Shown: positions 11,236-55,179 of the stretch, in pieces
Layout: every line of letters starts with the position of its first letter
Numbering within the stretch: the stretch's first letter is position 1
DNA from: Octopus sinensis
Taxonomy: Eukaryota
Assembly: GCF_006345805.1 (NCBI RefSeq)
Contig: NC_043007.1
Coordinates: 7,750,001-7,814,000, forward strand
Reading direction: 5' to 3'
Length of the DNA: 64,000 nt
Made by a program: the position numbers and the translations under genes
The notes under the pieces: model-generated
What the model was told of the DNA's origin: nothing
Databases searched by the model: none
What the model saw: only the letters and a program-made list of their open reading frames with translations

Positions 11236-12119
11236 GCCAAGCTAGTTGCAATTTAGATGAATTATTCGAAGCTATGGTACTGATCATTGTATCCTAGGCG
11301 TCGAGCAAGTGGAGACGATCGTAGGAGCACGTGGCTGTGAAGCAAACGTTATAGAAACCCGGCCATACACGACCACCCAGCATCTAATTCCATGCATCAC
11401 ATCTAAATTTATTTTATCTATCGGAAGGATTTCGCCTACCGTAACTTTTTTCAATTCTCCCAGATAAACAGAAGCAAAATATTATCCAGATTTTCTTTTC
11501 ATTTCTTTCTTTCTTTTAGTATTTTTTATATTTCTTCTTAAACCAATTTCAGAATCTCAAGTCAACGTTGCAAAATTATCAACCAATTATAATGTGAATG
11601 AAAGGCAGGAAAAAGTTTCTTTTGAAGGAGAAAGAGAAAAAGAAACAGTATTTACGAATCTTGTTTTATAAAAACATAACTTAAATATACCTAAACATTG
11701 ATAAGATTTCGAATTTTCTTTTAAATCGTTTTATTTTTATTTTTCAAATAATTTTGTCTCATCTTACTAATTTTGTAAATCTGTGCTAATTTAGAATGAA
11801 AAAAGAATTTCAAAAAGCAAAAGAGCTAAGGGAAGAATGAAGTTTTAAACAAAACAAAGATAACGAACAGATTTTTTTTTTCTCATGTAAAAGAATTTAT
11901 TCCTTTATTTTATAAGATTTTCATTTTATTTTATTATATTTTATGTTCTTGTTTTTCTCTTTGCAGGGATTGGATGAAAGAGAAACATAGCAGAAGCGGC
12001 GCAGCTGATTTTAAACAACATCGGAATACATAGAGCAGAACAGAGGATACGAAATGCACAGAATGTATAAGAAACTTATGATTGTGTACAAGGATATATA
12101 TATATGTGGACTATCTGAA

Positions 12120-12160
<41 letters not shown>

Positions 12161-12292
12161 CTAAAAACAAATATATATTTACACGCATGTGAATGTGTGT
12201 GTACACATTGCATTAGATCGTGTAGGTAGGTGTGAACAATATCAAAGAGAAATAGATTCTAAAGCTCTTTCACAATACACTGAATATATACA

Positions 12293-12323
<31 letters not shown>

Positions 12324-12353
12324 GTATATATATATATATATACTACGGGTATA

Positions 12354-12391
<38 letters not shown>

Positions 12392-12738
12392 GATATTAAT
12401 ACAGAGAAAAAATGACCAACTATAACTTTATTCTTACTAATGGCAATATCTCAACAACAGAGTATAATAACAGATTATTATTCTACTAACGCAATGATAT
12501 ATAATAAAGATATATACATATATAGTGTGCATGTATATATGTTTGTATATATATATATATATATGTGTGTGTGTGGTGTGTGTGTTGTGTGTGTGTGTGT
12601 GTGTGTCTAAAAACAAATATATATTTACACGCATGTGAATGTGTGTGTACACATTGCATTAGATCGTGTAGGTAGGTGTGAACAATATCAAAGAGAAATA
12701 GATTCTAAAGCTCTTTCACAATACACTGAATATATACA

Positions 12739-12801
<63 letters not shown>

Positions 12802-12811
12802 TACGGGTATA

Positions 12812-12851
<40 letters not shown>

Positions 12852-13006
12852 GATATTAATACAGAGAAAAAATGACCAACTATAACTTTATTCTTACTAA
12901 TGGCAATATCTCAACAACAGAGTATAATAACAGATTATTATTCTACTAACGCAATGATATATAAATAAAGATATATACATATATAGTGTGCATGTATATA
13001 TGTTTG

Positions 13007-13053
<47 letters not shown>

Positions 13054-13201
13054 CTAAAAACAAATATATATTTACACGCATGTGAATGTGTGTGTACACA
13101 TTGCATTAGATCGTGTAGGTAGGTGTGAACAATATCAAAGAGAAATAGATTCTAAAGCTCTTTCACAATACACTGAATATATACATACATACATACATAC
13201 A

Positions 13202-13232
<31 letters not shown>

Positions 13233-13280
13233 GTATATATATATATATATATATATACTACGGGTATAGTATATATATAT

Positions 13281-13314
<34 letters not shown>

Positions 13315-13472
13315 CATGATATTAATACAGAGAAAAAATGACCAACTATAACTTTATTCTTACTAATGGCAATATCTCAACAACAGAGTATAATAACAGA
13401 TTATTATTCTACTAACGCAATGATATATAAATAAAGATATATACATATATAGTGTGCATGTATATATGTTTG

Positions 13473-13527
<55 letters not shown>
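12161..13527. repeat. Three tandem copies of a ~446-bp microsatellite-rich unit
   Basis: ctaaaaacaaatatatatttacacgc starts at 12161, 12607 and 13054; unique parts essentially identical; units bounded by (TG)n. Confidence 0.95.
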
Positions 13528-19844: not shown

Positions 19845-20152
19845 AGAGACAAACCACTATTATGCAATTCAAACAAAAAAGACTTAATCCAATACATAAA
19901 ATAATTTATATAAATTAGAATTTAACATATGAATACCACTACGATCGTTTCGTGTCAGCACATCTTAGACATTCTTCAGGTGGTTTCAAAACCTTCTTAG
20001 CGGGTTTTGAAACCACCTAAAGAATGTCTAAGATGCACTGACAGGAAACGATCGTAGTGGTTATTCATATGTTAAATTCTAATTTATATAAATCATTTTA
20101 TGTATTGGATAAGTCTTTCTTTGTTTGATAGCATATATTGGTTTTGTCTCTA
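19845..20152. repeat. ~150-bp-arm palindrome carrying two divergent hammerhead motifs (PLE-type inverted terminal repeat)
   Basis: Arms are reverse complements around ~19998; the right arm continues into (TA)n at ~20245. Confidence 0.9.
19935..19984 (-). ncRNA. Minimal type-I hammerhead ribozyme
   Basis: ACCAC-CUGAAGA-A-UGUC..GACA-C-GAAAC-GAUC-GUA-GUGGU: perfect 5-bp stem I and palindromic stem III (ACGAUCGU). The mirror copy at 20012-20061 (+) has the core mutation CUAAAGA. Confidence 0.8.
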
Positions 20153-24763: not shown

Positions 24764-25040
24764 GTGTTTCTCATCCATCACATCCTTTTTTCCGTTTGCA
24801 TGAAAGACAAACAAGTGTGACAGCCGTTTGGCATTGAACATCTAAGCCAGCCAATCGGCTTTCGCTATTTCTCCGTAATCCATGCGAAAGTCTGAAACTT
24901 TACCAGATCTAACTTTCTAGCTGATCAAATCCACATTAGCTTTGAAACTGTGTTTCTCACCAAACTCTTCCAACTCAATAATGCTCTTTATTTACATTAT
25001 TTACATTTGACATATATTTGTCCTCATCCTGTTTGTTGTT

Positions 25041-25086
25041 AACCCAATGTTTCGGCTGATATACCCTCCAGCCTTCATCAGGTGTC
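25041..25086 (-). ncRNA. Hammerhead motif (mutated stem III/I)
   Basis: GACAC-CUGAUGA-A-GGCUG..CAGCC-GAAAC-AUU-GGGUU. Confidence 0.65.
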
Positions 25087-25140
25087 TTGGGGAAATTTCG
25101 AACCTGGGTTCTCATTTCTAAGGTATTTTCGATGTTGTTG

Positions 25141-25199
<59 letters not shown>

Positions 25200-25203
<4 letters not shown>

Positions 25204-25280
25204 TCACTGCCTGGAATCGAACTCGGAACTTTGGGGTTAGTAGACCGCGCTCTTAACCACTACGCCATATGCCCGTGGGC
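25200..25280 (-). promoter_or_regulatory. tRNA-like Pol III head (A and B boxes)
   Basis: A box TGGCGTAGTGG (25267-25257), B box GAGTTCGATTCC (25224-25213); acceptor stem not intact, so not a functional tRNA. Confidence 0.75.
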
Positions 25281-25342
<62 letters not shown>

Positions 25343-25374
25343 AATAATAATGATAATAATAATAAGAAGAAGAA

Positions 25375-25405
<31 letters not shown>

Positions 25406-25466
25406 AAGAAGAAGAAGAGATCGAAAATACCTTAGAAATGAGAACCCAGGTTCGAAATTTCTCCAA

Positions 25467-25512
25467 GACACCTGAAGAAGGCTGGAGGGTATATCAGCCG
25501 AAACGTTGTGTT
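25467..25512 (+). ncRNA. Minimal type-I hammerhead ribozyme (Penelope-type, loopless palindromic stem III)
   Basis: GACAC-CUGAAGA-A-GGCUG-gagggtatat-CAGCC-GAAACGUU-GUGUU; stem I GACAC/GUGUU; predicted cleavage after 25507. Confidence 0.8.
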
Positions 25513-26320
25513 AACAACAAACAAGATGAGGACAAGATGGTAAATAATGTAAATAATGTACATAATTCCTCATCTCTTAAATATAGAACTGTCAATAATG
25601 CTCTGTTGTTATAGTTTTGTGATACAAAACAAAAAATCAGAGAATCCAGGGGCAGTGGCTCGGAAACGAAATTTGCTTAGGGAGTTCAAACCCAAGTCTA
25701 AAATTTAAAATATAATTTTCTTCTTTGTTCTAACTTGAAGCTATTTTTCACTTTTTACACATTGTTTTGTAAAGCTGAGAAAAGTAAATAGGCAGCAAAT
25801 TTCGAGTTTGCACACAACAAAACTTTTAAGGGATGCGTCTGTATCCCCTGCACCCCTTGTTCCCGGGCCGGTCAATCAGCTGGAACAGTCTATAGTTTTG
25901 CAAGGAGTTCTTCTTTACTTTTTTCCTTTATTTATTTATTGACTTATTTATTAGTTTGACTGAAAAATGAACTCCGGTGTCAATGGTAAAAGTCTGAAAT
26001 GTTCAGCGGTTAGGGCTTGCGGTTATGGTTTCTGTGGTTTTCCGGCCCTCACCACCATAGAACGCAACGGGTCCAATACAACTTTTAGACACTGACAAAA
26101 CAAACTCCATATTAAAGTTCAAGTTTATTCGGAATGAAAGTGGCACCCACCACGGAATAAGGAAATGGATTCACCTGACAGAAGCATTTCATAGGTTGGG
26201 ATACATATGTGTGTGTGTCTGTGTGCGTGCGCACATGCCCCCCCCCCCACACACACACAGACACACACATACACACATATATATATAAAAGAGAGAGATA
26301 TGTTATATTAAATCTCTGAG

Positions 26321-29539: not shown

Positions 29540-29560
29540 TATATATATATATATATATAT

Positions 29561-29715
29561 AACATTATTGGTGAATTGAAGAATGGAGCTGAACGCAGAT
29601 TGAACAGAAATCGTTTTATTTCATTCTACACGTGTTTCGAAACACGTGTAGAATGAAATAAAACGATTTCTGTTCATCTGCGTTCAGCTCCATTTCTTCA
29701 ATTCACCATAATGTT
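29561..29715. repeat. Near-perfect palindrome centred on tttcgaaa, each arm starting with an HHR 3' half
   Basis: Centre at 29638/29639; each arm reads GAAAC-ACGU-GUA-GAAUG (palindromic stem III plus GUA site); abuts (TA)n. Confidence 0.9.
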
Positions 29716-29888
29716 TTAATTTCAATTATCCGCACCAACGCACGGTTGCAACGCCAGATGGTTGTACCTCCACCGTGCTGTTTACTGCTGTGATTTTTGC
29801 TACTAGGGATCGGTAAACTTTTGATTAATCTACTACAAGATTATTCATCTTTCTATTTCACATAATATATATATATATATATATATAT

Positions 29889-37250: not shown

Positions 37251-37383
37251 ATATGCTTTGTTTAAAGCAGCAGAAAATTCAACAAAACCTGTTACTCTGA
37301 GTTTCCCGTTGCCGATGAACGGCAACGGGAAACTCAGAGTAACAGGTTTTGTTGAACTTTCTGCTGCTTTAAACAAAGCATAT
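37251..37383. repeat. 64-bp-arm palindrome with a variant hammerhead core
   Basis: Arms 37251-37314 and 37320-37383; + strand reads CCGAUGA-A-CG-GCAA-CG-G-GAAAC-UCAGA-GUA-ACAGG; flanked by (TA)n. Confidence 0.85.
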
Positions 37384-46923: not shown

Positions 46924-48019
46924 ACAAGAATTCAGTTTCAGTCATTCTTTGCTCCAAACCGGTTGGTACGTAACTTATTCTACCAATGATAAGAGCTACC
47001 ATATTTCCAAACTCCTTCTCACTGATTTCACTGATTTCACCCGTAATTTTCTTTTTTAACGCATTGGTCTCCATTGGTCTCCAGAGGGCAGCTTATTTCC
47101 ACAAAAGAGTATATTTCTTTCTTGTGGGCCCCACACGACAATATATGGCGATTGTGCTTTAAGTTTGTGGCTGTTTTCATTTTTACGTTCCACCAATATT
47201 CTTTCGACCCGTTGATTCTCGACGTAATTAACTCTGTTGCTATTCTCTATTATTCTGTTTCAGATTGCTTTGTATGTATGTATGTATGTATGTATGCATG
47301 GATGGATGGATGGATGGATGGATGGATGGATGGATGGATGGATGGAGGGATGGATGGAGGGATGGATGTGTATACCGATCGGCCATGTTTGAATATATGA
47401 CTTTTAAAATGTTACAGCATTAAGCTATAAATAAAAATGACAGCATTAGTGCAAGTAATATTGATTGGCTGATATTAGGTGCCCTGGCTGACAGAGCTTA
47501 GCTTGTTAGAAGCAGTTATTAGTTTTCTTCAGAATATGGAATACAGCAAGCTTTGGCCTGAGGTGCATGGCTGATTTTTGCATCTTTAAAGAGCGAGTAT
47601 TACTATAAACAGTCTCGCGCTGTAGCAACATATTAACGATGGCGACAACGAACGTTCGCTGTGTAAATGTTTTCTGAGAATGTGGCGGGTTTCTTTATTT
47701 GTTTGTGTATGTGCGTGCATGTGTGTGCGCTTGTGCGCTTGTGCGTGTGTGTGTGTGTGTGTGTGTGGTGTGTGTGTGAGTGTTGCCTTATGCTTTTATT
47801 CTTTTACTTGTTTCAATCGCCGGAGTGCAGCTGTGTTGAGAAACCGCTTTTAAGGAATTAGTCGAACAAATCGACCCCAGTTCCTATTCTCTGTACGTCT
47901 GATAATTCTACGGGTTTCTCTTACCGAGTTCAGTGGGGTGTCGAGCGGATTACAGACAAGCACAAAGACACACACACACATATAGAGAGGTAGATATAGA
48001 TACAAATATATATATATAA

Positions 48020-48058
<39 letters not shown>

Positions 48059-48400
48059 CTTATATATATATATATAAAAATTCCCTCAAATAATTATTAT
48101 ATATATATATATATACGTATATATATATATATATACATCAAAAAAGGGGGTAGAATAATTAATTGTTAATAAATTCGACCAAGCAGTATTCGGTATGTAA
48201 AGACCATTTACGGTGTATTTGAAGTATTAATTTATAAAAATATGGTAAAGTAAAAAAATTCACTTTACCACACACCGAACTTTTCAGAAATAGCAGCCAA
48301 AAATATGGCTATTTCTTCAACTGCAAATAAAAGTCTCCAGACAATGCATACTCAGAAAATAACTCACATAGGTATAAGGGAAAAACATCCATATGCGATA

Positions 48401-48470
48401 CCCGAGGACAGTCTGTTTCTGGATTTGTGGATTTTGTTTTAAAACGCCACTTTTCCTTCATCAGCTCAGA
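48401..48470 (-). ncRNA. Hammerhead ribozyme, array left arm (altered stem II loop)
   Basis: Reverse complement of the motif at 50413-50474. Confidence 0.7.
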
Positions 48471-48965
48471 GATTTCTTCTTATTTAGATTTGAAAATACT
48501 AAGAATCAAACATACCCGTCCGATATCTGTAACATCGGACAAACCATGCCAGACACCCAGTACTAGCGAATCCAAAAATACGAATGAGATCTATTATTCT
48601 CCCTGTCCACCCACGTGAGTCATAGAGCATTACATTTCTACAGAGGTAAAAACTGTAGTTCAAATTCTTGGAGAGAAAAGTATTATATTGTCATCAAAAA
48701 AGGGGGTAGAATTAATTAATTGTTAATAAATTCGACCAAGCAGTATTCGGTATGTAAAGACCATTTACGGTGTATTTGAAGTATTAATTTATAAAAATAT
48801 GGTAAAGTAAAAAAATTCACTTTACCACACACCGAACTTTTCAGAAATAGCAGCCAAAATATGCTATTCTTCAACTGCAAATAAAAGTCTCCAGACAATG
48901 CATACTCAGAAAATAACTCACATAGGTATAAGGAAAACAATGAAAGATCACATCCATATGCGATA

Positions 48966-49027
48966 CCCGAGGACAGTCTGTTTCTGGATTTGTGGGTAAA
49001 ACGCCACTTTTCCTTCATCAGCTCAGA
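48966..49027 (-). ncRNA. Hammerhead ribozyme, array left arm
   Basis: Reverse complement of the motif at 50413-50474. Confidence 0.8.
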
Positions 49028-49523
49028 GATTTCTTCTTATTTAGATTTGAAAATACTAAGAATCAAACATACCGTCCGATATCTGTAACATCGGACAAAC
49101 CATGCCAGACACCCAGTACTAGCGAATCCAAAAATACGAATGAGATCTATTATTCTCCTGTCCACCCACGTGAGTCATAGAGCATTACATTTCTACAGAG
49201 GTAAAAACTGTAGTTCAAATTCTTGGAGAGAAAAGTATTATATTGTCATCAAAAAAGGGGTATAGAATTAATTAATTGTAATAAATTCGACCAAGCAGTA
49301 TTCGGTATGTAAAGACATTTACGGTGTATTTGAAGTATAATTTATAAAAATATGGTAAAGTAAAAAAATTCACTTTACCACACACCGAACTTTTCAGAAA
49401 TAGCAGCCAAAAATATGGCTATTTCTTCAACTGCAAATAAAAGTCTCCAGACAATGCATACTCAGAAAATAACTCACATAGGTATAAGGGAAAAACAATG
49501 AAAGATCACATCCATATGCGATA

Positions 49524-49585
49524 CCCGAGGACAGTCTGTTTCTGGATTTGTGGGTAAAACGCCACTTTTCCTTCATCAGCTCAGA
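49524..49585 (-). ncRNA. Hammerhead ribozyme, array left arm
   Basis: Reverse complement of the motif at 50413-50474. Confidence 0.8.
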
Positions 49586-50412
49586 GATTTCTTCTTATTT
49601 AGATTTGAAAATACTAAGAATCAAACATACCCGTCCGATATCTGTAACATCGGACAAACCATGCCAGACACCCAGTACTAGCGAATCCAAAAATACGAAT
49701 GAGATCTATTATTCTCCCTGTCCACCCACGTGAGTCATAGAGCATTACATTTCTACAGAGGTAAAAACTGTAGTTCAAATTCTTGGAGAGAAAAGTATTA
49801 TATTGTCATCAAAAAAGGGGTAGAATTAATTAATTGTTAATAAATTCGACCAAGCAGTATTCGGTATGTAAAGACCATTTACGGTGTATTTGAAGTATTA
49901 ATTTATAAAAATATGGTAAAGTAAAAAAATTCACTTTACCACACACCGAACTTTTCAGAAATAGCAGCCAAAAATATGGCTATTTCTTCAACTGCAAATA
50001 AAAGTCTCCAGACAATGCATACTCAGAAAATAACTCACATAGGTATAAGGGAAAAACAATGAAAGATCACATCCATATGCGATACCCGAGGACAGTCTGT
50101 TTCTGGATTTGTGGGTAAAACGCCACTTTTCCTCGAATACTGCTTGGTCGAATTTATTAACAATTAATTAATTCTACCCCCTTTTTTGATGACAATATAA
50201 TACTTTTCTCTCCAAGAATTTGAACTACAGTTTTTACCTCTGTAGAAATGTAATGCTCTATGACTCACGTGGGTGGACAGGGAGAATAATAGATCTCATT
50301 CGTATTTTTGGATTCGCTAGTACTGGGTGTCTGGCATGGTTTGTCCGATGTTACAGATATCGGACGGGTATGTTTGATTCTTAGTATTTTCAAATCTAAA
50401 TAAGAAGAAATC

Positions 50413-50474
50413 TCTGAGCTGATGAAGGAAAAGTGGCGTTTTACCCACAAATCCAGAAACAGACTGTCCTCGGG
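50413..50474 (+). ncRNA. Type-I hammerhead ribozyme, array right arm
   Basis: Stem I UCUGAG/CUCGGG; core CUGAUGA; stem II GGA/UCC plus GUGG/CCAC; GAAAC; quasi-palindromic stem III ACAG-A-CUGU; GUC cleavage after 50468. Confidence 0.82.
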
Positions 50475-50971
50475 TATCGCATATGGATGTGATCTTTCAT
50501 TGTTTTTCCCTTATACCTATGTGAGTTATTTTCTGAGTATGCATTGTCTGGAGACTTTTATTTGCAGTTGAAGAAATAGCCATATTTTTGGCTGCTATTT
50601 CTGAAAAGTTCGGTGTGTGGTAAAGTGAATTTTTTTACTTTACCATATTTTTTAAATTAATACTTCAAATACACCGTAAATGGTCTTTACATACCGAATA
50701 CTGCTTGGTCGAATTTATTAACAATTAATTAATTCTACCCCCTTTTTTGATGACAATATAATACTTTTCTCTCCAAGAATTTGAACTACAGTTTTTACCT
50801 CTGTAGAAATGTAATGCTCTATGACTCACGTGGGTGGACAGGGAGAATAATAGATCTCATTCGTATTTTTGGATTCGCTAGTACTGGGTGTCTGGCATGG
50901 TTTGTCCGATGTTACAGATATCGGACGGGTATGTTTGATTCTTAGTATTTTCAAATCTAAATGAAGAAATC

Positions 50972-51033
50972 TCTGAGCTGATGAAGGAAAAGTGGCGTTT
51001 TACCCACAAATCCAGAAACAGACTGTCCTCGGG
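50972..51033 (+). ncRNA. Hammerhead ribozyme, array right arm
   Basis: Identical motif; GUC at 51025-51027. Confidence 0.82.
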
Positions 51034-51532
51034 TATCGCATATGGATGTGATCTTTCATTGTTTTTCCCTTATACCTATGTGAGTTATTTTCTGAGTATG
51101 CATTGTCTGGAGACTTTTATTTGCAGTTGAAGAAATAGCCATATTTTTGGCTGCTATTTCTGAAAAGTTCGGTGTGTGGTAAAGTGAATTTTTTTACTTT
51201 ACCATATTTTTATAAATTAATACTTCAAATACACCGTAAATGGTCTTTACATACCGAATACTGCTTGGTCGAATTTATTAACAATTAATTAATTCTACCC
51301 CCTTTTTTGATGACAATATAATACTTTTCTCTCCAAGAATTTGAACTACAGTTTTTACCTCTGTAGAAATGTAATGCTCTATGACTCACGTGGGTGGACA
51401 GGGAGAATAATAGATCTCATTCGTATTTTTGGATTCGCTAGTACTGGGTGTCTGGCATGGTTTGTCCGATGTTACAGATATCGGACGGTATGTTTGATTC
51501 TTAGTATTTTCAAATCTAAATAAGAAGAAATC

Positions 51533-51594
51533 TCTGAGCTGATGAAGGAAAAGTGGCGTTTTACCCACAAATCCAGAAACAGACTGTCCTCGGG
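51533..51594 (+). ncRNA. Hammerhead ribozyme, array right arm
   Basis: Identical motif; GUC at 51586-51588. Confidence 0.82.
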
Positions 51595-52093
51595 TATCGC
51601 ATATGGATGTGATCTTTCATTGTTTTTCCCTTATACCTATGTGAGTTATTTTCTGAGTATGCATTGTCTGGAGACTTTTATTTGCAGTTGAAGAAATAGC
51701 CATATTTTTGGCTGCTATTTCTGAAAAGTTCGGTGTGTGGTAAAGTGAATTTTTTTACTTTACCATATTTTTATAAATTAATACTTCAAATACACCGTAA
51801 ATGGTCTTTACATACCGAATACTGCTTGGTCGAATTTATTAACAATTAATTAATTCTACCCCCTTTTTTGATGACAATATAATACTTTTCTCTCCAAGAA
51901 TTTGAACTACAGTTTTTACCTCTGTAGAAATGTAATGCTCTATGACTCACGTGGGTGGACAGGGAGAATAATAGATCTCATTCGTATTTTTGGATTCGCT
52001 AGTACTGGGTGTCTGGCATGGTTTGTCCGATGTTACAGATATCGGACGGGTATGTTGATTCTTAGTATTTTCAAATCTAAATAAGAAGAAATC

Positions 52094-52154
52094 TCTGAGC
52101 TGATGAAGGAAAAGTGGCGTTTTACCCACAAATCCAGAACAGACTGTCCTCGGG
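52094..52154 (+). ncRNA. Hammerhead ribozyme, array right arm (GAAAC reduced to GAAC)
   Basis: One A missing: an inactivating mutation or a homopolymer sequencing error. Confidence 0.65.
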
Positions 52155-52349
52155 TATCGCATATGGATGTGATCTTTCATTGTTTTTCCCTTATACCTAT
52201 GTGAGTTATTTTCTGAGTATGCATTGTCTGGAGACTTTTATTTGCAGTTGAAGAAATAGCCATATTTTTGGCTGCTATTTCTGAAAAGTTCGGTGTGTGG
52301 TAAAGTGAATTTTTTTTTTTTACTTTACCATATTTTTATAAATTAATAC

Positions 52350-52383
<34 letters not shown>

Positions 52384-52405
52384 CACACGTTCAACACACG
52401 CATTC

Positions 52406-52442
<37 letters not shown>

Positions 52443-54230: not shown

Positions 54231-54838
54231 GGCTAAGAAGGAATATATTCACAGACATGACTGAGTTGGAACCTACATACACTGGAAGCTATGCCAACAT
54301 TATGGAATAACAACAGAAAAAAATGGTATAGGCACACACCAGAAAAGGTCACAGAAAACGAGAAAGCAACCATACTCTGGGATATGCCGATACACACAGA
54401 TAGAGAAATTAAGGCCAACAGACCAGATATAGTTGTCAGAGATCATGAAGAAAAAAAATGCTTTCTAATTGATGTATCAATACCAGCGGATGACAACGTG
54501 TCTCTAAAAGAAATGAAGAAACTTTCAAAATACAAAGACCTGGAAATGGAGGTAACCAGAATGTGGAACCTAAAAACAGAAACAATTCCTATTATAGTAG
54601 GTGCATTAGGCATGATAAAAAAATATTCAGACAAATACATAACAAAAACACCAGGACTTACAAACACATATAACATACAGAAAATTGCACTACTAGGCAC
54701 TGTACACATCCTATGCAGAACACTTTCCATACAATAACCATCAGAGCATCACAACAAATCACAACATATACCCAAGGCACACAGAACTGCGCTCGGTAGT
54801 GAAGTGAAAGCACGCTATAAAAAAATAAAACTACTGAA
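54231..54838 (+). mobile_element. 5'-truncated R4/Dong-type non-LTR retrotransposon (restriction-like endonuclease domain + 3' UTR)
   Basis: ORF 54291-54737: ILWDMPIHTDREIKANRPDIVV..CFLIDVSIP..KLSKYKDL..IPIIVGALG (PD-(D/E)xK RLE); (TAA)n at 54196-54230 and 54838-54858. Confidence 0.92.
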
Positions 54839-54958
54839 TAATAATAATAATAATAATAGAAATATTACATTTCTAAATCTCTCTTCAGTGAATGTATTTC
54901 ACTTGAAATAGGTTTTCAAAGGCGCATAAGCATCGACAGCTAGGAAGCCATGTTACTC

Positions 54959-54997
54959 CAGACTGATGATGAGCAATGACTCTGAAACCAGTCTCTG
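54959..54997 (+). ncRNA. Solo minimal hammerhead motif
   Basis: CAGA-CUGAUGA-U-GAG-caauga-CUC-U-GAAAC-CA-GUC-UCUG. Confidence 0.65.
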
Positions 54998-55179
54998 CTT
55001 GCTGGCTTTGCTGGGTAGAGGTGCTTATCTCCACCTTTGAATACATAAGGACACAGAAAAATGTGTCAAGTCCAACAGGAAACAGTGTTTCCTCGGGCTA
55101 AATAGCAGTAGCATTCTTCCCTTTCATGGGACTGCCACATTAAGTTGGCGAGATACCATCATGTTTTCGAATTCTGCCA

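What the first reader, a model, noticed from the sequence alone, without database searches (positions are those of the whole stretch)
48136..52350. Candidate retrozyme: ~560-bp tandem units each carrying a hammerhead ribozyme
Seen: about 7.5 near-identical non-coding units. Each contains UCUGAG-CUGAUGA-A-[GGA..GUGG/CCAC..UCC]-A-GAAAC-AGACU-GUC-CUCGGG, with GUC sites at 50468, 51027, 51588 and 52148 (spacing 559-561). The unit has further hairpins (GGUAAAGU/ACUUUACC, AGAAAUAGC/GCUAUUUCU, UCCGAU/AUCGGA, CUACAG/CUGUAG). Known: animal non-LTR retrozymes are tandem repeats with one type-I HHR per monomer, yield circular RNAs and are thought to use Penelope-like RTs; minimal HHRs with palindromic stem III cleave as dimers, which tandem units allow. 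Inference: this is a young cephalopod retrozyme making a ~560-nt structured circRNA, larger than the few-hundred-nt monomers I recall for animals. The A·A juxtaposition at the base of stem II is non-canonical.
Basis: partly seen in the sequence, partly recalled or inferred. Interest (0 to 1): 0.92.

Follow-up and report, generated by a model that had tools for sequence, protein, structure and literature searches.

The report
Head-to-head hammerhead retrozyme insertion
This is a young copy of a protein-free jumping RNA with a self-cutting hammerhead motif, and the shape of its insertions shows how Penelope-type enzymes probably copy such RNA circles into DNA, while a second retrotransposon uses the same element as its landing site.

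Summary
The repeat and hammerhead are real, but this is not one tandem run: a minus-strand arm (48136-50133, 3.6 units) meets a plus-strand arm (50134-52350, 4.0 units) head to head, and both outer ends abut (TA)n. The 561-bp unit is a dispersed young family; a 558-bp sister family (68% identical) keeps the hammerhead core, palindromic helix III, mismatch below helix II and the same two end sites. Across fetched loci, 3' ends cluster at two internal sites about 95 nt apart, the two arms of an insertion almost never use the same site, and variants are fixed across all units of an array, both arms included. This is the Penelope-like (PLE) 'tail' and inversion signature and fits rolling-circle reverse transcription of one RNA circle primed from both target strands. 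An L1/Tx1-type LINE inserts at one site in the unit (18-bp duplication) and was in two loci apparently carried along. Cleavage, circles, expression and the partner enzyme are not shown. Verdict: non-LTR retrozyme, a known kind, with unusually informative insertion anatomy and a LINE parasite that I did not find in print.

The parts
48136..50133 (-). Left arm: unit positions 519-561, three full units, then 1-285 (numbered from the base after GUC); 3' end at the second initiation site (P2)
50134..52350 (+). Right arm: unit positions 228-561, three full units, then 1-197; 3' end at the first initiation site (P1)
50133..50134 (.). Head-to-head (5'-to-5') junction, blunt, unit 519 joined to unit 228
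   Evidence: not bridged by any listed contig
47994..48135 (.). (TA)n target, left half
52350..52439 (.). (TA)n target, right half
50413..50474 (+). Type I hammerhead, predicted cut after 50468
50972..51033 (+). Type I hammerhead, predicted cut after 51027
51533..51594 (+). Type I hammerhead, predicted cut after 51588
52094..52154 (+). Hammerhead lacking one A of GAAA (mutation or homopolymer error)
49524..49585 (-). Type I hammerhead, C17 at 49530
48966..49027 (-). Type I hammerhead, C17 at 48972
48401..48470 (-). Type I hammerhead with 8-nt insertion in helix II, C17 at 48407
50085..50133 (-). 3' half of a hammerhead cut off by the junction, C17 at 50091
51132..51320 (+). Structured module (unit about 105-293) holding both initiation sites, shared with sister families B and C; shown for one unit
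51453..51470 (+). Empty 18-bp LINE target (unit 426-443); also at + 50332, 50893, 52014 and - 48551, 49107, 49666

Best explanation
A non-autonomous Penelope-like retroelement of the non-LTR retrozyme kind. Inferred cycle: (1) an array is transcribed; pairs of hammerheads cut through a shared palindromic helix III; monomers (sometimes multimers) are ligated to circles [inferred from anatomy and from PMC7229834; not shown here]. (2) A PLE RT-GIY-YIG protein, probably as a dimer, binds the conserved hairpin module, nicks both strands of a (TA)n tract and starts reverse transcription internally at two A/U-rich single-stranded sites of the RNA, unit ~190-204 (P1) and ~281-293 (P2) [end positions shown; enzyme inferred]. 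(3) Each cDNA runs round the circle for a variable length, and either one is joined to the target or the two are joined to each other by 0-14 nt of overlap, giving the head-to-head array with one arm from each site [architecture shown; circle inferred from array-wide fixed variants]. The window's array is one such recent event, 3.6 plus 4.0 laps. Secondarily an L1/Tx1-type LINE inserts at unit 426/443 and can be carried by the retrozyme's priming signals [insertion site shown; carriage inferred from two loci].
For: Dispersal: 1425 candidate places, 39 scored, on at least 18 large contigs; 314 exact hits of a 23-base hammerhead pattern, 0 for the reversed control. Ends: 60 of 64 arms in 39 loci end at TA-rich DNA, 45 of these 60 in two 23-nt windows (windows chosen on these data); 19 of 25 fully seen arm ends in 20 further loci taken in genome order fall in the same windows; family B ends at the homologous ~197 and ~295. 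No 3' end of 60 within 5 nt of the cleavage site; 60 5' ends uniform (KS p 0.53). Inversion: 22 of 39 loci head to head within the fetched stretch, 2 more upstream of a LINE. Both arms at the same site: 1 of 23 in family A (5.95 expected, p 0.003), 0 of 13 in B (5.76 expected, p 0.0008), 0 of 17 in later loci. One template: among 181 copies, 184 substitutions shared by all covering copies of an array, 19 by some, 151 singletons; 15 fixed and private to one array, several across both arms; within-array 0.31% against 1.7% between; window 0 of 12132. Period-4 and period-2 variant patterns in family-B arrays L233 and L150, one L233 unit carrying a core G8A change. RNA-level selection: fixed variants break helices in 15 of 59 cases, singletons in 52 of 93 (p 2e-4), none fixed in the core; A against B, 27 of 55 one-sided changes keep the pair (12.3 expected), 16 of 27 two-sided (11.6 expected). 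Helix III: monomer pair probability <=0.02, dimer -8.3 kcal/mol in A and -12.2 in B. Young PLE families with open RT-GIY-YIG frames, a CxxxxCxxC linker, (TA)n ends and a tail exist in the genome. PLE internal initiation at two sites, on both strands, is shown in vitro in PMC11167929.
Against: No cleavage, circle or transcript was shown. No BLAST similarity (E<=0.01) between the unit and the PLE elements in 42 GIY-YIG loci examined, out of 5029 candidates, so the partner is not identified. The distance between the two sites (~95 nt) exceeds the 30-40 nt PLE tail. PMC11167929 found uncleaved RNA to be the main substrate in vitro. Ends often share TA/AT letters with the target, so simple annealing may explain part of the clustering, whereas that paper reports initiation without homology. 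In L233 one marker (A117G) does not follow the period and the short arm does not continue it; the permutation p for the period is only 0.027. One head-to-head locus has both arms at P1 (L060). The first 39 loci were the best full-unit matches and so are biased to long young arrays. Rfam has no hit.
Confidence: 0.78

Rival explanations
1. Same PLE-driven insertion, but the template is a linear, uncleaved multimeric transcript of a source array; the hammerhead is weak and circles are not needed.
For: Uncleaved RNA is the main substrate for an anole PLE in vitro (PMC11167929); 8 of 9 Xenopus retrozyme dimers did not cleave in vitro (preprint); a homogeneous source array would also give homogeneous daughters; no 5' ends at the cleavage site in family A (0 of 60).
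Against: 30 distinct fixed variant sets among 39 arrays and 15 private fixed variants need repeated one-monomer bottlenecks; 5' truncation would only shorten arrays, yet arms reach 8.5 units in A and over 10 in B; repeated period-4 and period-2 patterns; the core is conserved between families 68% alike.
Confidence: 0.14
2. A single PLE-type end was inserted and then expanded locally at DNA level (unequal crossover), as the 2026 preprint proposes for retrozyme tandems.
For: Higher-order periods in L233 and L150 can arise by block duplication; model stated in 10.64898/2026.07.22.740005.
Against: Variants shared by only some units are rare (19 against 184 fixed and 151 singletons), whereas stepwise duplication predicts nested sharing; private variants run across inverted arms; both arms end at defined sites in (TA)n and have non-integer unit numbers.
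Confidence: 0.04
3. The L1/Tx1-type LINE found in the unit, not a PLE, mobilises the retrozyme.
For: Physical association in 20 of 30 listed LINE loci.
Against: The LINE makes 18-bp duplications at a non-repeat site; retrozyme ends are at (TA)n without poly(A), with the two-site and head-to-head pattern described for PLEs; family B inserts the same way though its homologous target stretch is the most diverged part.
Confidence: 0.02
4. The inverted array is an assembly artefact of long reads.
For: No listed contig bridges the junction (a hole proves nothing); many single-base indels in the units.
Against: Flanks differ on the two sides; junction is asymmetric (519 against 228); the same design with different junctions recurs in 24 of 39 family-A loci and in family B; a private variant marks both arms.
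Confidence: 0.02

Closest known systems
Non-LTR retrozymes of coral, mussel, axolotl (PMC7229834; results and discussion read) and vertebrates (bioRxiv 10.64898/2026.07.22.740005; abstract to discussion read)
   Same: Non-coding, GC <50%, tandem units with one type I hammerhead each, weak palindromic helix III, strongly self-paired predicted circle, dispersed copies, coexistence with PLEs.
   Different: 561 nt against 170-400 nt in the first paper (within the 51-972 bp of the second); long bipartite helix II with mismatched base and no Rfam match; insertion anatomy (head-to-head arms, two start sites, (TA)n target) is not described in the parts read; circles and cleavage not tested here.
Endonuclease-bearing Penelope-like elements, Neptune type (PMC8557442, PMC3846280: passages; PMC11167929: main text)
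   Same: (TA)n bias, head-to-head inverted 5'-truncated copies, a 'tail' on only one of the two ends, two internal initiation sites, microhomology joints, cargo moved in trans.
   Different: No ORF; spacing of the two sites ~95 nt rather than 30-40; multi-lap arms; no sequence match to the PLEs examined.
Target-specific Tx1-clade LINEs (Tx1L in Tx1D, Tx1-Mar in Mariner-N4, Keno in U2; PMC4494074, passages)
   Same: AP endonuclease-RT-zf-RVT LINE inserting at one site of a multicopy element, with a target duplication and tandem re-insertion.
   Different: The target is a ribozyme-bearing retrozyme; the LINE lies between hammerheads and appears in PLE-type inverted insertions. Clade membership not tested by phylogeny.

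Membership tests
non-LTR retrozyme | Tandem units with one type I hammerhead each | tested here: met
   arms are tandem internally but opposed to each other
non-LTR retrozyme | No protein-coding frame, no LTR-type layout | tested here: met
   longest ORF 106 aa stop to stop; unit repeats throughout; PBS/PPT not searched separately
non-LTR retrozyme | Dispersed multicopy family | tested here: met
non-LTR retrozyme | Stable self-paired monomer, strand-specific | tested here: met
   z -6.25, antisense much weaker; selection on pairs
non-LTR retrozyme | Self-cleavage | not testable with these tools
   needs in vitro transcription
non-LTR retrozyme | Expression as circular RNA | tested here: inconclusive
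   only contigs of runs of unrecorded kind were available; circle inferred from genomic variants
type I hammerhead | Core CUGANGA, GAAA, UH with helices I-III | tested here: met
   core unchanged in family B; no fixed core variant in A
type I hammerhead | Canonical G10.1-C11.1 directly on the core; Rfam model match | tested here: not met
   extra A on both sides of the G-C pair; no Rfam hit; precedents
PLE-mobilised element | Head-to-head 5'-truncated copies, tail on one end, microsatellite target | tested here: met
PLE-mobilised element | Sequence shared with the pLTR of an autonomous PLE | tested here: inconclusive
   none in 42 GIY-YIG loci of 5029 candidates
Tx1-clade target-specific LINE | APE-RT-zinc finger ORF2 | tested here: met
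   PF03372, PF00078, PF13966
Tx1-clade target-specific LINE | Over 20% of copies at one target, independent insertions, target duplication | tested here: met
   20 of 30 listed loci (ranked by likeness to a retrozyme-borne copy, 196 candidates); 18-bp duplication in 11 full-length copies; flank haplotypes differ by locus and other units are empty
Tx1-clade target-specific LINE | RT phylogeny within Tx1 | not tested
   homologue search gave no clade names

The most novel reading that the evidence does not exclude
A three-tier system: a PLE dimer primes one RNA circle from both strands of a (TA)n nick at two mutually exclusive sites and rolls round it, which would explain both PLE head-to-head inversions and retrozyme tandems in one step; circles can be multimers when hammerheads are dead; and a target-specific LINE lives inside the retrozyme, borrows its promoter and flanking hammerheads to define its own transcript, and spreads by its own enzyme and as >5-kb cargo of the PLE machinery.
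Probability: 0.4. Interest if true: 0.82.

Novelty: new variant of a known kind. Interest (0 to 1): 0.63.

Why it matters
How animal retrozymes are copied, and by which enzyme, is stated as open in the papers read: one proposes reverse transcription of circles, another local unequal crossover, and a review says the repeats show no motif pointing to a partner. These young families record the process in their ends and variants: two fixed start sites, exclusive use by the two arms, one haplotype per array. That gives exact predictions for the existing in vitro PLE assay and a candidate cis module able to move kilobases of cargo. The LINE target site adds a parasite of a ribozyme element.

Tried and rejected
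Rfam: no hammerhead hit in the window or in six related loci. Expression: no RNA holder listed; four runs laid as contigs, kind guessed or unknown, show the unit and its end-to-start joint, which fits tandem DNA as well as a circle; no listed piece bridges the inversion junction; neither counts for or against. One-lap pile-up: 7 of 13 arms at 1.01-1.12 units in one sample was not repeated (1 of about 24 arms in 20 loci taken in genome order); dropped. 5' ends at the cleavage site: none of 60 in family A; in family B two exactly at position 1 and four within 14 nt upstream, a weak hint that RT pausing at the palindrome could also give. A-to-I editing as source of variants: fixed A>G 10, T>C 16, no sense-strand excess. 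Autonomous partner by homology: not found. Family C shares the hairpin module but no hammerhead was found in 15 loci of older, short copies. Other LINE landing sites match neither unit nor Rfam. Fold-back self-priming as the general cause of inversions: junction positions of the two arms are unrelated in most of 22 loci. Rows left out of counts: L052 (gap) from the pair test; four LINE-junction 5' ends from the uniformity test; arms reaching a stretch edge. Earlier findings of the scan: none returned. Not in print within the held library: searches; the supplement of PMC7229834 could not be read and may list cephalopod repeats or insertion sites; Repbase/Dfam were not available.
Full report
1. 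What is there. The stretch 48136-52350 holds 7.5 copies of a 561-bp unit, numbered here from the base after the hammerhead's GUC. It is two arms. The left arm is on the minus strand (5' end at unit 519, three full units, 3' end at unit 285 at window 48136). The right arm is on the plus strand (5' end at unit 228, three full units, 3' end at unit 197 at 52350). The arms meet 5' to 5' at 50133/50134 without overlap, and both 3' ends run into (TA)n tracts.

2. The hammerhead. Each whole copy has a 6-bp helix I, the core CUGAUGA, an extra A, a two-part helix II, another extra A, GAAA, a near-palindromic helix III and GUC. Rfam does not detect it. A descriptor as strict as the observed motif hits 1 of 20000 shuffles of the unit, and the unit folds as a circle at z -6.25, on the sense strand only. 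Helix III hardly forms in a monomer (probability <=0.02) but pairs between two copies (-8.3 kcal/mol), as described for animal type I motifs (PMC4209133). A sister family B (558 bp, 1593 candidate places, 68% identical over aligned columns) keeps the core, replaces A.A by U.U below helix II, changes GGA/UCC to AGA/UCU and has a perfect palindrome in helix III. Variants fixed in family-A arrays avoid breaking helices (15 of 59 against 52 of 93 for singletons, p 2e-4) and none lies in the core. So the motif is under selection as RNA. Activity is untested.

3. The family. The unit has 1425 candidate places in G000, of which the best 39 were scored and fetched; a 23-base core pattern has 314 exact hits. 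Of 64 arms in those loci 60 end 3' at TA-rich DNA, 30 at unit 185-207 (P1) and 15 at 274-296 (P2). These windows were set on the same data, but 19 of 25 fully seen ends in 20 more loci taken in genome order fall in them, and family B ends at the homologous places. Both sites are single-stranded A/U-rich stretches next to conserved hairpins. 5' ends are uniform round the unit and no end marks the cleavage site in family A. 22 of 39 loci are head to head, two more once the DNA beyond a LINE is read. The two arms of an insertion almost never use the same site: 1 of 23 in A and 0 of 13 in B against about 6 expected each, and 0 of 17 in loci fetched later. Most insertions are under 1.4 units; the window's array is in the long tail.

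4. One template per array. In 181 copies, 184 substitutions are shared by all covering copies of an array, 19 by some, 151 are singletons; 15 are fixed and private, some across both arms. The window itself carries a private C at unit 12 in all its copies on both arms and no other substitution away from indels, so it is very recent. Stepwise DNA duplication predicts nested sharing, which is rare. Two family-B arrays show higher-order periods, four units in L233 and two in L150; in L233 one repeating unit has the core change G8A and another a broken helix III palindrome, as expected if uncut junctions left a multimeric circle. That case is imperfect: one marker and the short arm do not follow the period, and block duplication could give the same.

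5. Mechanism. Head-to-head truncated copies, a tail on one end only and (TA)n bias are PLE traits (PMC8557442 and PMC3846280, passages). PMC11167929 (main text) shows a PLE protein nicking both strands of AT-rich DNA and starting at two internal RNA sites whose interval is the tail. P1 and P2 are best read as these sites, with a 95-nt interval. Exclusive use of the two sites plus shared private variants point to one RNA primed twice; arms of up to 8.5 units (over 10 in B) with no end at the cut site point to a circle. The genome has young PLE families with open RT-GIY-YIG frames, (TA)n ends, a 35-nt tail and their own minimal hammerheads, but none of 42 loci examined shares sequence with the unit, so the partner is inferred by behaviour only. 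The main rival, a linear uncleaved multimer, remains open because that paper found cleavage unnecessary in vitro.

6. A LINE that targets the unit. Four of the 39 arrays contained the same 5.5-kb element (endonuclease, RT, zf-RVT) at unit 426/443. Of 30 listed copies of its 3' end (best of 196 candidates) 20 are followed by unit 426, four of them by only the duplicated 17-18 bases and another LINE; ten lie elsewhere. Eleven full-length copies show the 18-bp duplication, two of them probably one duplicated locus. Flanking haplotypes differ between loci, match on both sides, and other units of the same arrays are empty: independent site-specific insertions. Two loci on different haplotypes share four changes only in the 5' flank, suggesting that LINE RNA carries upstream unit sequence. 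In L183 and L185/L187 the head-to-head junction lies inside the LINE while the outer ends are retrozyme sites at (TA)n, which is most simply PLE-type copying of a LINE-bearing RNA. Tx1 elements that target other transposons are known (PMC4494074, passages); a retrozyme target was not found in the searches. All seven target sites in the window are empty.

7. Comparison and verdict. It works like, and on all features testable here belongs to, the non-LTR retrozymes (PMC7229834; preprint); cleavage and circles are the untested defining features. Size and helix II mismatch have precedents. No cephalopod case appeared, though an unread supplement may hold one and the host is inferred. What is new is the insertion record, which bears on the open question of how retrozymes are copied (PMC7761336, passages), and the LINE relationship. 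New variant of a known kind; interest 0.63.

Noticed in passing
window 24988-25565: Head-to-head pair of short repeats beside (ATT)n with a PLE-type minimal hammerhead (core at +25472, palindromic helix III).
   Followed up: partly
window 19845-20151: Inverted pair whose left arm has a hammerhead on the minus strand (core at 19979) with A.C below helix II, so a mismatch there recurs in other families of this genome.
   Followed up: partly
window 29558-29718 and 37251-37383: Near-perfect palindromes abutting (TA)n; the first has its centre in a hammerhead-like 3' half; probably short head-to-head PLE-type ends.
   Followed up: no
window 54955-55000: Weak hammerhead-like motif at +54963 just after a LINE-like C-terminal frame (54261-54737).
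   Followed up: no
window 12095-13519: Tandem duplication of about 450-480 bp units rich in microsatellite, 92-94% identical.
   Followed up: no
L157:887-1444 and L136-L160, L220-L233: Sister retrozyme family B, 558 bp, young, same insertion anatomy.
   Followed up: yes
L161-L175: Older family C sharing the hairpin module with compensatory changes; 1437 candidate places; no hammerhead seen in the short copies.
   Followed up: partly
L124:174-4960: Young two-frame PLE (479 and 781 aa), 97-99% identical copies, with a U3-A8 variant minimal hammerhead near its 3' end and a 35-nt tail with a hairpin.
   Followed up: partly
L082, L086, L087, L089, L090, L091, L093: Tandem clusters of related LINEs at other targets that also end in CGAT about 18 nt downstream; target unidentified.
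   Followed up: partly
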